Shown here one piece after another: positions 9,829-34,308 of a DNA stretch of 64,000 nucleotides. Source of the DNA: the human T2T-CHM13v2.0 reference genome, Homo sapiens; assembly GCF_009914755.1 (NCBI RefSeq), contig NC_060929.1; one strand, written 5' to 3'. The translations under genes were made by a program, and so were the position numbers. The notes beneath the pieces are model-generated. The model was not told the DNA's origin and did no database searches. It was given only the letters and a program-made list of their open reading frames with translations. The first letter of the stretch is position 1; each line of letters opens with the position of its first letter.

Positions 9829-9888
9829 CTGATTAGGTATCCTCAATGGGGGCCTTGGACCTCCAGGGTACCGAGGTGACATAAAAGG
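9829..9888 (-). CDS. SSBP2: SSBP2 internal coding exon (60 nt, probably exon 6), start of the proline-rich region
   Basis: Minus strand TTTGTTTTACTTCAATAG|CCTTTTATG...CCTAATCAG|GTAAGA. Encodes [20 protein letters not shown], which directly follows ...GFFQ in SSBP2; phase 0-0. Confidence 0.97.
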
Positions 9889-10626: not shown

Positions 10627-12116
10627 TTGACTACAAATTTTAAAGTTGAAATTTCTTTGCATATTTTGACCCTAGCTGATTATGAAGCGTATATTTTTAA
10701 CAAAAGAAAAAAATGATCTTATATTAAAAGTCAAGTTAATTTATGTTGCTGGATGAGTCAGAGGCTCCTAAGATGTACTGAATCTGTCAGTCTGGAAATT
10801 GTCTGAAAAGTATCCTAAAAGCAACATTTTAGTGAAATGTTTAGGTAAGGTAAAAAGAGACTATTTTTGATCATCCAGACTTAGGCACCAAAATTTTATA
10901 AGTTTATTAAATTATTTAAAATTTGATTTTTTATTTATTTTTCTAGAAACAACAGAAAAATTATAATTTTGTTTAATTACATCTCAACATATAATTACTT
11001 AAACGTAAGATGTTTCTTACATGTAATATAAGCAAATATCAAATCTAACGGGTTGAATGTTATTAAGATATTAAGAATTAATTAATATGAATTAAGAAGT
11101 AATATACAGCAAGTAGACAAAGGTTTGGGGAAATCATTGACAGTGCATTACAGAATTAAATCCTACATGTAGAATGTATTTTCTACAAATATTTTTAGAA
11201 ATTAGGCTTGGAGGACATGGCTACTCAGGTTTTCCAGAGCTGTTTTAAAAGGAGCCTCTAAAAAATAAAATCCTAATTAATGCTGTATAGATTTTTCCTG
11301 TAGTATCTTTTGCAGAGTCTGACAAACCAACAAAAGGAGCTTCACAATTAAGTGAGCAATTTGGCTTTTTGTTCACTGTGTTCTTATATGTAAAAGTGCT
11401 TCCAGCAGTTCATTTTATATGGACAGAAACAGTAGATTAGTCAGGTAGTATTGTCACCTCCAGCTGATAAAACTTAAGTAGATTTTCCAATTTTAACAAA
11501 GTTGATTTTAAAAACGTTTAGTTTTCACATATTTGATTAAAGTTGTCTCTCATTTATCATTTTGAAACTCTACCATAAATTGGATAAGTTAGTTATGTAC
11601 TGTCAACTAGAAGCTTATTCTAATATTCACACTCTCTCTGTTATTTTCTCTTTCCTTTATAAATCACCTAATTTCACCTATGAAGCTGTCTTTTTAATTC
11701 TGGACTAATTTAAAAAATTTAATAAATATTGTGTCATTGGTTTTATAATGGCTGTCTTTTACAAAATGATGTTTTATGACATAGTCATTAATTCAAAATA
11801 TAGTATCAATTTAGTTTTTGAAACATGGAGACATAAAAATAGGTTACTAATAATTTTTGTCTGTAATACAACCACTTTGAAGTAGAATACAAGGTAAAAT
11901 TATGTGAAAAATATTACTAAATACCAAATGTTGAGATAAATATTTAGAAGTGCCTCACTTGAAACAGAAGAACACTTGAGATCTGCGTGTTGATCTGAAT
12001 GTAAGAAGATGATACAGTGTTTATTTAGTGGTATATGTAAAAGGAGAATTTTTTTTCCCCAAATGGATGGCATTGTGAATGAGTGTATGTTAATGGAACT
12101 GTCTATACCCTCCTAC

Positions 12117-12189
12117 CTGACTGAGGCCCTGTGAAGGAGCTGCTGTGAGGGAGGGTCAGTGTATGTGCTAGCTGGGAACCTGCAGGTTA
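12117..12189 (-). pseudogene. Vestigial exon or pseudo-exon homologous to the SSBP3/SSBP4 cassette exon (possible poison exon)
   Basis: TCTCTTTCTCTTGATCTCATTTTGTAG|TAACCTGCAGGTTCCCAG...GGGCCTCAGTCAG|GTAGGA. Translates *PAGSQLAHTLTLPHSSSFTGP.. versus recalled SSBP3 GPPGSQPSPHAQPPPHNPSSMMGPHSQ at the equivalent position. Confidence 0.75.
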
Positions 12190-12763
12190 CTACAAAATGA
12201 GATCAAGAGAAAGAGACAGATTCTGTTTTTAGTCAATTTATTACTCTTATATGTCCTCCTTTAAGTTCAAATTTGTATGTTTTTTTGGAGGCCAAAAAAA
12301 AAGAAATAGAAAACCACTTATAAACTCTAATCTTCACACAATTAAAGCACAAAAAGACAAAACAATCGGTTAATATAGCTAAAAACTACTACTTTTACCT
12401 GAAATATAAGATTACTATGGTTAAAGTATTTTTAACACAAAATTAGTGCTGTTATAACATGGCTTAGTATTCAGATTGATCCTTCCCTTATGTTATCTAG
12501 ATAACCACCTAAGTCCTCAACTGCCTAGTGAATTAGCTTGCGTAGACACAGCAACAGAATCTAAAAGCGTTTGCATACTAGCAACTGAGAATAATCTGCA
12601 CTAGTATCTGTACTTCACTATTCAGAAGTCAATTTGCTTTCAAATGAAATTCAAAATGTTAACCCCAATTTTAATTATTTTATGGTAAAATGCTAATCTG
12701 TCCAAGAGATTATGCTAATATAAATTATATCTATTGACAGACATGTCAGTATTCCCTGCTTTA

Positions 12764-13210
<447 letters not shown>

Positions 13211-21405: not shown

Positions 21406-21963
<558 letters not shown>

Positions 21964-34218: not shown

Positions 34219-34308
34219 CTGAAAGAACCCTGGTGGTACAGGACCTACTGGCATGCCATCTCCTGGGGGAATGTTTCCTAGCACTGGACTGGGAGCTGCT
34301 GCAGCACT
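34219..34308 (-). CDS. SSBP2: SSBP2 internal coding exon (90 nt, probably exon 5), just after the LUFS domain
   Basis: Minus strand TTTATTCTTTGCAG|AGTGCTGCA...TTCTTTCAG|GTACTC. 30 codons, [30 protein letters not shown], matching recalled SSBP2 protein; phase 0-0. Confidence 0.97.

What the first reader, a model, noticed from the sequence alone, without database searches (positions are those of the whole stretch)
12117..12189. Vestigial paralog exon in the SSBP2 intron that may act as a poison exon
Seen: between the ...GFFQ and PFMSPR... exons there is a unique, GC-richer 73-nt minus-strand segment. It has a pyrimidine tract and AG (TCTCTTTCTCTTGATCTCATTTTGTAG|), YTNAY branch candidates (TTGAC ~12232-12236) and a CAG|GTAGGA donor. 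In phase 0 it reads * P A G S Q L A H T L T L P H S S S F T G P and ends CAGTCAG. Knowledge (recalled): SSBP3 carries GPPGSQPSPHAQPPPHNPSSMMGPHSQ and SSBP4 a similar GPPGSQPSPH..MMGPHGQ at exactly this point, while canonical SSBP2 lacks it. P.GSQ, H, PH, SS, GP and the terminal AGTCAG (SQ) line up. The first codon is now TAA and the length is 3n+1. A second AG 10 nt inside (63-nt exon from 12179) reads GTT CCC AGC TAG, also a stop. Inference: an ancestral SSBP-family cassette exon lost its coding role in SSBP2 but kept its splice signals. Inclusion would trigger NMD or give a short protein ending just after the LUFS domain, a possible dosage control for LDB1 complexes.
Basis: partly seen in the sequence, partly recalled or inferred. 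Interest (0 to 1): 0.85.

Follow-up and report, generated by a model that had tools for sequence, protein, structure and literature searches.

The report
Dead cassette exon in SSBP2 intron
A 73-base stretch inside a human SSBP2 intron is the broken remnant of a small coding exon that sharks, fish, frogs and lizards still use in SSBP2; it keeps its splice signals, so if spliced in it would stop the protein early, but whether cells ever use it is untested.

Summary
Minus strand 12189->12117 is a unique, GC-richer 73-nt segment. It has a pyrimidine tract plus AG, a CAG|GTAGGA donor, an in-frame TAA as first codon and a length of 3n+1.

The homology claim holds and can be sharpened. The human SSBP3 (81 nt) and SSBP4 (66 nt) cassette exons were found in the same genome at the same gene position. 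Aligned end to end with the SSBP3 exon, the candidate ranks 1 of 18,864 AG..GT-bounded segments in the window. Composition-preserving shuffles give z = 3.

SSBP2 proteins of sharks, chimaera, gar, sturgeon, teleosts, frogs and squamates carry an intact 25-28-residue cassette exactly here. The human element is therefore the decayed orthologue of SSBP2 exon 6, not only a paralogue look-alike.

The poison-exon function is untested. No RNA data or other mammalian genomes could be reached. Splice signals this good occur 10 times in this intron. No paper links SSBP2 to a poison exon.

Verdict: a real vestigial exon, a new member of a known kind, of moderate interest.

The parts
12117..12189 (-). Vestigial SSBP2 exon 6 (73 nt). 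It is the decayed orthologue of the 84-nt (28-codon) vertebrate SSBP2 cassette and a paralogue of the SSBP3 81-nt and SSBP4 66-nt cassettes.
   Evidence: It shares 48 of 73 ungapped columns with the SSBP3 exon and 43 of 64 with the SSBP4 exon. It ranks 1 of 18,864 anchored segments.
12187..12189 (-). TAA in phase 0, where the intact cassettes have a Gly codon. This is the first disabling lesion.
12117..12125 (-). 3' end CCTCAGTCAG. Compared with SSBP3 (CCCCACAGTCAG) and SSBP4 (CCTCACGGTCAG), 2 nt are missing from the His codon. This makes the exon 3n+1, the second disabling lesion.
   Evidence: Alignments.
12190..12220 (-). Acceptor region: pyrimidine tract (16 of 20 pyrimidines at -23..-4) ending in tAG (AG at 12191-12190).
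12232..12236 (-). TTGAC branch-point candidate, with its A 43 nt upstream of the AG. A second YTNAY (TTGAT) lies at 12202-12206.
   Evidence: This is a motif match only.
12111..12116 (-). Donor intron part gtagga. With the exon end CAG it matches the donor consensus at 7 of 9 positions.
12180..12181 (-). Second AG, 10 nt inside the segment. It would give a 63-nt variant (12117-12179) with an in-frame TAG at 12168-12170.
34219..34308 (-). SSBP2 exon 5 (…GFFQ), the exon upstream of the cassette position.
9829..9888 (-). The next constitutive SSBP2 exon (PFMSPR…), 2,228 nt downstream of the vestigial exon.

Best explanation
The segment is the decayed orthologue of vertebrate SSBP exon 6. That exon is a small alternative cassette encoding a Pro/His/Ser-rich insert of 25-28 residues between ...GFFQ and PFMSPR.... 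It is intact in human SSBP3 and SSBP4, and in SSBP2 of cartilaginous fishes, ray-finned fishes, frogs and squamates. In the human SSBP2 copy the first codon is TAA. A 2-nt loss near the 3' end makes the length 3n+1, and three codons have been lost in frame. The AG, the pyrimidine tract and the GT donor survive at the ancestral exon borders. These points are shown: identity, position, lesions and surviving signals. The rest is inferred. The exon is normally skipped. When it is included, the stop directly follows Gln of GFFQ. It lies 70 nt before the exon's own 3' junction and upstream of many further junctions, so the transcript should be an NMD substrate. If it escaped NMD it would encode only the LUFS domain plus exon 5. 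The most likely status is a vestigial exon with at most low, unselected inclusion. A regulated role is possible but unproven.
For: Position: the segment is on the same strand, in the same intron and in phase 0. It lies near the 3' end of a ~24-kb intron, as in SSBP3. The intron split is 22.0 kb + 2.2 kb in SSBP2 and 23.3 kb + 0.9 kb in SSBP3.

Similarity: it ranks 1 of 18,864 AG..GT segments (55-100 nt, both strands) against the SSBP3 exon in all three scoring schemes. Against the SSBP4 exon it ranks 1 or 2; under one scheme its own 63-nt variant comes first. It ranks 1 of 466 composition-matched segments. Shuffle z is 3.05 and 3.09, with 19 of 5000 shuffles reaching the score in each case. 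Both alignment ends coincide with the splice sites, and ...GTCAG|gta is shared by all three genes.

Orthologues: cassettes were read from nine fetched SSBP2 orthologues: shark, chimaera, gar, sturgeon, Brienomyrus, sardine, Rhinoderma, Xenopus and gecko. A second lizard has the same cassette as the gecko. By tblastn on the window, the candidate is the best hit for the Xenopus cassette (E 0.002, 14 of 26 identical), for sturgeon and for Brienomyrus. The human PAGSQ shares its Ala only with the two squamate SSBP2 proteins.

Splice signals are as good as those of the two real flanking exons.
Against: Plain local DNA alignment does not single the site out. It is the third distinct locus under one scoring scheme and much lower under two others; C-rich repeats score as well. 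Genome-wide searches with the SSBP3 cassette peptide, with the candidate peptide and with a full cassette-bearing SSBP2 protein did not link the site to the paralogues. In tblastn the candidate is not among the top 5 hits for the shark, gar, gecko or sardine cassettes. Against the SSBP4 exon, GC-rich control DNA gives some equal or better scores. The shuffle p of about 0.004 is modest on its own. Nothing here shows that the exon is ever spliced. Ten AG..GT pairs with equally good signals lie in this one intron.
Confidence: 0.8

Rival explanations
1. Regulated poison exon. After losing its coding capacity, the cassette was kept because its inclusion sends SSBP2 mRNA to NMD. That would tune SSBP2 dosage and hence LDB1 complex stoichiometry. 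This accepts the homology and adds a selected function.
For: The stop is in frame at the first codon and sits 70 nt before the exon's 3' junction. The splice signals are as good as those of the neighbouring real exons. The paralogous SSBP3 exon 6 is a regulated cassette with lineage-specific inclusion, and its deletion has a phenotype (PMC12946277, passages). That it is the same exon follows from my exon count, not from the paper. So regulators that recognise this exon type exist. Relative to the intact cassettes there are few lesions: one nonsense codon, one 2-nt loss and in-frame codon losses.
Against: There is no evidence of inclusion. No paper in the library holds SSBP2 together with 'poison exon' or 'unproductive splicing'. 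A search for truncated proteins ending at GFFQ listed none from a mammal among the 120 of 503 rows shown. Ten of those rows were read; the only one ending at GFFQ is a partial fish model. Retention of four essential splice-site bases is not improbable under neutral decay (inference). Conservation could not be measured.
Confidence: 0.25
2. Chance pseudoexon: a C-rich intronic stretch with fortuitous splice-like signals that only resembles the Pro-rich cassettes because of its composition.
For: Pro-codon-rich queries hit C-rich repeats in the window as well or better in local searches. The shuffle p is only about 0.004. Ten equally good AG..GT pairs lie in this intron.
Against: The segment ranks 1 of 18,864 in the anchored test and 1 of 466 composition-matched segments. 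Strand, phase, intron and place within the intron are all as expected. Both exon borders match. The orthologous exon is proven to exist in other vertebrates' SSBP2, so a remnant is expected somewhere in this intron.
Confidence: 0.1
3. Alternative terminal exon. The donor is ignored, the transcript is cleaved after the AATAAA 92 nt downstream of the donor, and a stable mRNA encodes a LUFS-only SSBP2 (residues 1-123) that could compete for LDB1.
For: AATAAA lies at 12025-12020 on the minus strand. Solved structures show that SSBP2 residues 1-94 form the folded LDB1-binding part. An SSBP3 1-98 fragment tethered to a promoter activated transcription like the full-length protein (bioRxiv 10.1101/2025.06.05.658047, passages).
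Against: AATAAA is common by chance in AT-rich introns. No transcript evidence exists. No truncated mammalian protein was found among the rows listed.
Confidence: 0.04

Closest known systems
SSBP3 exon 6 (81 nt, 27 residues) and the SSBP4 cassette (66 nt, 22 residues) in the same genome
   Same: Same gene position between the GFFQ and PFMSPR exons, same phase, same ...GTCAG|gt donor. About 66% nucleotide identity over the ungapped columns.
   Different: Those two exons are open and 3n long. The SSBP2 copy starts with TAA and is 3n+1, so it cannot code.
SSBP2 exon 6 of non-mammalian vertebrates (shark, gar, sturgeon, teleosts, frogs, squamates)
   Same: This is the orthologous exon. The flanking exons are almost identical to the human ones, and the cassette motifs P-x-G-S-Q, H, P-H, S-S and G-P occur in the same order.
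   Different: It is intact there, at 25-28 codons. Only protein sequences could be fetched, so the DNA of those exons was not compared.
Classical poison exons, such as those of SR-protein genes, TRA2B and SCN1A 20N (recalled, not from a call)
   Same: A cassette with an in-frame stop whose inclusion should trigger NMD.
   Different: Those exons have shown inclusion, an NMD response and often extreme conservation. None of this was testable here.
Intronic pseudoexons with good splice-site matches that are never used (recalled concept)
   Same: Splice-like signals inside a long intron. Ten equally good AG..GT pairs lie in this intron.
   Different: This one has a demonstrable exon ancestry. Ordinary pseudoexons do not.

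Membership tests
SSBP-family cassette exon 6 (by descent) | Lies between the GFFQ exon and the PFMSPR exon, on the gene strand, entered in phase 0 | tested here: met
SSBP-family cassette exon 6 (by descent) | End-to-end sequence similarity to known cassettes above chance | tested here: met
   Rank 1 of 18,864. Rank 1 of 466 GC-matched segments. Shuffles 19 of 5000. Best tblastn hit for 3 of 9 cassette peptides. Local DNA scans and genome-wide searches did not find it.
SSBP-family cassette exon 6 (by descent) | An orthologous exon exists in SSBP2 of other vertebrates | tested here: met
   sharks, chimaera, gar, sturgeon, two teleosts, two frogs, two squamates
SSBP-family cassette exon 6 (as a working coding exon) | Open frame with a length that is a multiple of three | tested here: not met
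   TAA at codon 1 and 73 nt = 3n+1. The 63-nt variant has an in-frame TAG.
Poison exon (AS-NMD) | Inclusion introduces a premature stop more than about 50 nt upstream of a later exon junction | tested here: met
   The TAA at 12189-12187 is 70 nt before the junction at 12117. Further SSBP2 exons follow. The 50-nt rule is recalled.
Poison exon (AS-NMD) | The exon is included in real transcripts | not testable with these tools
   No RNA-seq or transcript table was reachable. Only 1 of 89 RefSeq transcripts was shown in the task.
Poison exon (AS-NMD) | The inclusion isoform rises when NMD is blocked | not testable with these tools
   No data. Literature searches gave nothing for this exon.
Poison exon (AS-NMD) | Splice sites and exon conserved beyond neutral expectation in related species | not testable with these tools
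   No other vertebrate genome DNA is held.

The most novel reading that the evidence does not exclude
The dead cassette has been co-opted as a regulated poison exon that still answers to the splicing factors controlling the intact paralogous exon 6 of SSBP3. In cells that include exon 6, SSBP3 would then switch protein isoform while SSBP2 mRNA is sent to NMD. This would be a paralogue-specific dosage switch for LDB1 complexes, built from one ancestral alternative exon.
Probability: 0.15. Interest if true: 0.65.

Novelty: new member of a known kind. Interest (0 to 1): 0.42.

Why it matters
SSBP2, SSBP3 and SSBP4 are partners of LDB1 in enhancer-promoter looping complexes (bioRxiv 10.1101/2025.06.05.658047, passages). 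The paralogous SSBP3 exon 6 appears to be a regulated exon, and its deletion has a haematopoietic phenotype (PMC12946277, passages). Human SSBP2 carrying the broken orthologue of this exon explains why mammalian SSBP2 lacks the insert. It is also a clean, datable example of exon death. It also defines an exact and cheap test, a junction-read count with and without NMD block, of whether a dead coding exon was recycled as a dosage valve. If the exon is not used, the finding is a small annotation note.

Tried and rejected
1. Local Smith-Waterman scans of the SSBP3 and SSBP4 exons over both strands of the window did not make the candidate the top hit. C-rich repeats scored as well. An anchored global test replaced them.

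2. Three genome-wide searches returned no link between the site and the paralogues. The queries were the candidate peptide, the 201-nt DNA and the SSBP3 cassette peptide. A search with a full cassette-bearing SSBP2 protein mapped the other SSBP2 exons but not this site.

3. A 30-aa query was too short for the large protein search. A 77-aa translation of an SSBP3 retrocopy was used instead.

4. The third protein search looked for short mammalian proteins ending at GFFQ as a footprint of an annotated NMD transcript. None was found among the 120 of 503 rows listed. This is weak evidence, because only cluster representatives are shown.

5. Seven literature searches were run. None describes this exon. 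A mouse brain study reports an unannotated Ssbp2 exon that is lost in a Huntington model (PMC11802453, passages).

6. Earlier findings of this scan were not open.

7. Rfam and tandem-repeat scans of the intron found nothing at the site.

8. Dating the loss (mammals only, or birds too) failed. No SSBP2-named bird or mammal protein with the cassette appears in the listed rows, but members of the 612-sequence cluster P0118 could not be listed.

Full report
**Observation**

On the minus strand the window reads ...tctgtctctttctcttgatctcattttgtag | TAACCTGCAGGTTCCCAGCTAG...GGGCCTCAGTCAG | gtaggagggtat. The segment between AG (12191-12190) and GT (12116-12115) is 12189->12117, which is 73 nt.
- The upstream SSBP2 exon (34219-34308) ends GGG TTC TTT CAG (…GFFQ). 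The next exon (9829-9888) starts CCT TTT ATG (PFMSPR…). The intron is therefore entered and left in phase 0.
- In that phase the segment reads *PAGSQLAHTLTLPHSSSFTGPQS plus one extra base.
- A second AG at 12181-12180 would give a 63-nt variant reading GTT CCC AGC TAG.
- TTGAC lies at 12236-12232.
- GC is 0.53 in 12100-12199, against 0.22-0.39 in most neighbouring 100-nt windows.
- The stretch is not a repeat. A 201-nt query and the 23-aa translation each matched only themselves in the 3.1-Gb assembly.

**The paralogous exons, taken from this genome rather than from memory**

- Searching the assembly with the two flanking SSBP2 exons located SSBP3 on contig 1 and SSBP4 on contig 19. It also found a set of intronless copies.
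- An intronless SSBP3 copy on contig 7 has 81 nt between the two exons, reading GPPGSQPSPHAQPPPHNPSSMMGPHSQ.
- That peptide found the true SSBP3 exon at C1:54140897-54140977 (-). It lies 23.3 kb after the GFFQ exon and 882 nt before the PFMSPR exon.
- In SSBP4 the 716-nt interval holds a 66-nt AG..GT exon reading GPPGSQPSPHNPNAPMMGPHGQ.
- In SSBP2 the candidate splits the intron into 22.0 kb + 2.2 kb. This is the same asymmetric layout as in SSBP3.

**Is the similarity more than chance?**

Results against:
- Plain local alignment of the SSBP3 and SSBP4 exons along both strands of the window did not put the candidate first. It was the third distinct locus under one scoring scheme and far lower under two others. 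C-rich repeats did as well.
- Genome-wide searches did not connect the site with the paralogues.

Results for:
- I took all 18,864 AG..GT-bounded segments of 55-100 nt on both strands of the window and aligned each end to end with the two exons. The candidate is first against SSBP3 under all three scoring schemes (10 against 5 for the runner-up under +1/-1/-2/-1). Against SSBP4 it is first or second; under one scheme its own 63-nt variant comes first.
- Among the 466 segments of similar composition (GC >= 0.5, C >= 0.30) it is again first.
- In about 6,400 control segments from other loci, only fragments of the true SSBP3 exon beat it against SSBP3. Against SSBP4, 15 control segments scored at least as high; some are fragments of the true SSBP4 exon and at least one is unrelated very GC-rich DNA.
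- Dinucleotide-preserving shuffles of the candidate give z = 3.05 (SSBP3) and 3.09 (SSBP4), with 19 of 5000 shuffles reaching the observed score in each case.
- Identity is 48 of 73 ungapped columns with SSBP3 and 43 of 64 with SSBP4. The alignments run from acceptor to donor, with ...GTCAG|gta shared by all three genes.

**The decisive addition: orthologues**

The large protein database holds vertebrate proteins. A 77-aa query (exon 5 + cassette + next exon, from the contig-7 copy) returned 755 proteins, of which 120 were listed. A second query, from a gecko SSBP2, returned 841, of which 120 were listed.

Proteins named SSBP2 that carry a cassette exactly between GFFQ and PFMSPR (SFMSPR in the sardine) come from these groups:

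| Group | Cassette |
|---|---|
| Two sharks, a chimaera | GPPGSQPSPHAQPPPHNPSNPMMGPHSQ |
| Gar | same as shark except ...HTQ |
| Sturgeon | 26 residues |
| Two teleosts | 28 and 25 residues |
| Frog (Rhinoderma) | GHPGSQSSPHAHHLPHNLSSSMIGPHGQ |
| Frog (Xenopus) | GPPGSQLSLHAQHLPHNLSNSMIGPQNQ |
| Two squamates | GPAGSQPSPHAQPPTHNPSNPTMGPHGQ |

- The flanking exons of these proteins are nearly identical to the human ones. The cassette is therefore an ancestral SSBP2 exon, not only a feature of SSBP3 and SSBP4.
- tblastn of nine cassette peptides against the window puts the candidate first for three of them: Xenopus (E 0.002, 14 of 26 identical), sturgeon and Brienomyrus. It is second for Rhinoderma and third for human SSBP3. 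It is outside the top five for shark, gar, gecko and sardine.
- The human PAGSQ shares its Ala only with the two squamate SSBP2 proteins. This fits orthology within amniotes, although it rests on one site.
- No bird or mammal protein named SSBP2 with the cassette appears among the listed rows. Members of the large cluster behind the gecko protein (612 sequences) could not be listed, so the time of loss stays open.

**Lesions**

Three kinds of lesion separate the human copy from the intact cassettes:
- TAA stands where all the others have Gly.
- There is a 2-nt loss in the last His codon (CCTC--AGTCAG against CCTCACGGTCAG in SSBP4). This alone makes the length 3n+1.
- About three codons are lost in frame (28 -> 24 codons and one base).

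Up to GGG CCT the similarity runs in the acceptor-anchored frame. The last AGT CAG (Ser-Gln) fits the donor-anchored frame. This pattern is what a once in-frame exon with one late frameshift would show.

**Splice signals**

- The acceptor has 16 of 20 pyrimidines at -23..-4, and the donor matches 7 of 9 consensus positions.
- The two real flanking exons have 17 of 20 with 6 of 9, and 14 of 20 with 8 of 9.
- Of 32,775 minus-strand AG..GT pairs of 50-200 nt, 24 are at least as good on both counts, and 10 of these lie in this intron.
- The signals are therefore competent-looking, but alone they are no evidence of use.

**Consequence of inclusion (inference)**

- The TAA would follow Gln of GFFQ directly. 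It lies 70 nt before the exon's 3' junction, and further SSBP2 exons follow.
- By the usual rule (recalled) the mRNA would be an NMD target.
- An escaping product would be SSBP2 1-123. Solved structures cover residues 1-94, the LUFS domain. Pfam SSDP starts at residue 82.
- An SSBP3 1-98 fragment tethered to a promoter activated transcription like the full-length protein (bioRxiv 10.1101/2025.06.05.658047, passages).

**What is known**

- By exon count the cassette is exon 6. A 2026 paper reports SSBP3-E6 as a lineage-regulated skipped exon, with mean PSI 0.27 in myeloid, 0.08 in erythroid and 0.10 in lymphoid cells. Its deletion lowers mouse myeloid colony formation by 58% (PMC12946277, passages). 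That this is the same exon is my inference from the count.
- No paper in the library holds SSBP2 together with 'poison exon' or 'unproductive splicing'.
- The 8 papers holding 'nonsense-mediated decay' and the 4 holding 'cryptic exon' do not describe this exon, as far as titles, abstracts and the passages read show.
- A mouse study mentions an unannotated Ssbp2 exon present in normal brain and lost in R6/2 mice (PMC11802453, passages).
- The task's gene table shows 1 of 89 RefSeq transcripts, so the exon may already be in a model I could not see.

**Verdict**

- The homology inference is supported and sharpened: this is a decayed orthologue of SSBP2 exon 6 (confidence about 0.8-0.85).
- The regulatory poison-exon idea is untested (about 0.25).
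- It is a new member of a known kind, a vestigial exon and poison-exon candidate. Interest is moderate, and a cheap decisive test exists.

Noticed in passing
L014 (G000:C6:83482585-83485638), minus strand: A processed SSBP2 copy on contig 6 has a 147-aa open frame. It joins ...FHDY directly to the PFMSPR-type exon, so it derives from an mRNA that skipped exon 5 (window 34219-34308) as well as the cassette.
   Followed up: partly
L003/L021 (C7:39.99 Mb), L004/L023 and L006/L024 (C14), L005/L025 (C22), L020 and L022 (C2): Six intronless SSBP3-like copies all contain the 81-nt cassette. Two have long open frames without stops (304 and 357 aa).
   Followed up: no
L007/L013 (G000:C18:12.23 Mb), minus strand: An intronless SSBP4-like copy carries the 22-residue cassette and has a 196-aa open frame.
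   Followed up: no
window 21858-21894 (+): An (AC)18.5 array, which is a (GU)n run in the SSBP2 pre-mRNA of the same intron, about 9.7 kb upstream of the vestigial exon. GU repeats are the recalled TDP-43 motif. A mouse paper reports TDP-43 sites in the intron holding an unannotated Ssbp2 exon.
   Followed up: no
window 12937-13084 (+): An Rfam Metazoa_SRP match at the gathering score, inside a stretch masked as a repeat. It is most likely an Alu element, not an SRP RNA gene.
   Followed up: no
window 12020-12025 (-): AATAAA 92 nt downstream of the vestigial exon's donor. It could in principle end a transcript that fails to use the donor, but the hexamer is common by chance in AT-rich DNA.
   Followed up: no
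proteins P0118, P0128, P0130, P0126, P0135 against P0046: In SSBP2 the cassette varies a good deal among frogs, teleosts and squamates, while the two flanking exons are almost invariant. This suggests relaxed constraint on this exon in SSBP2 well before its loss in the human lineage.
   Followed up: partly
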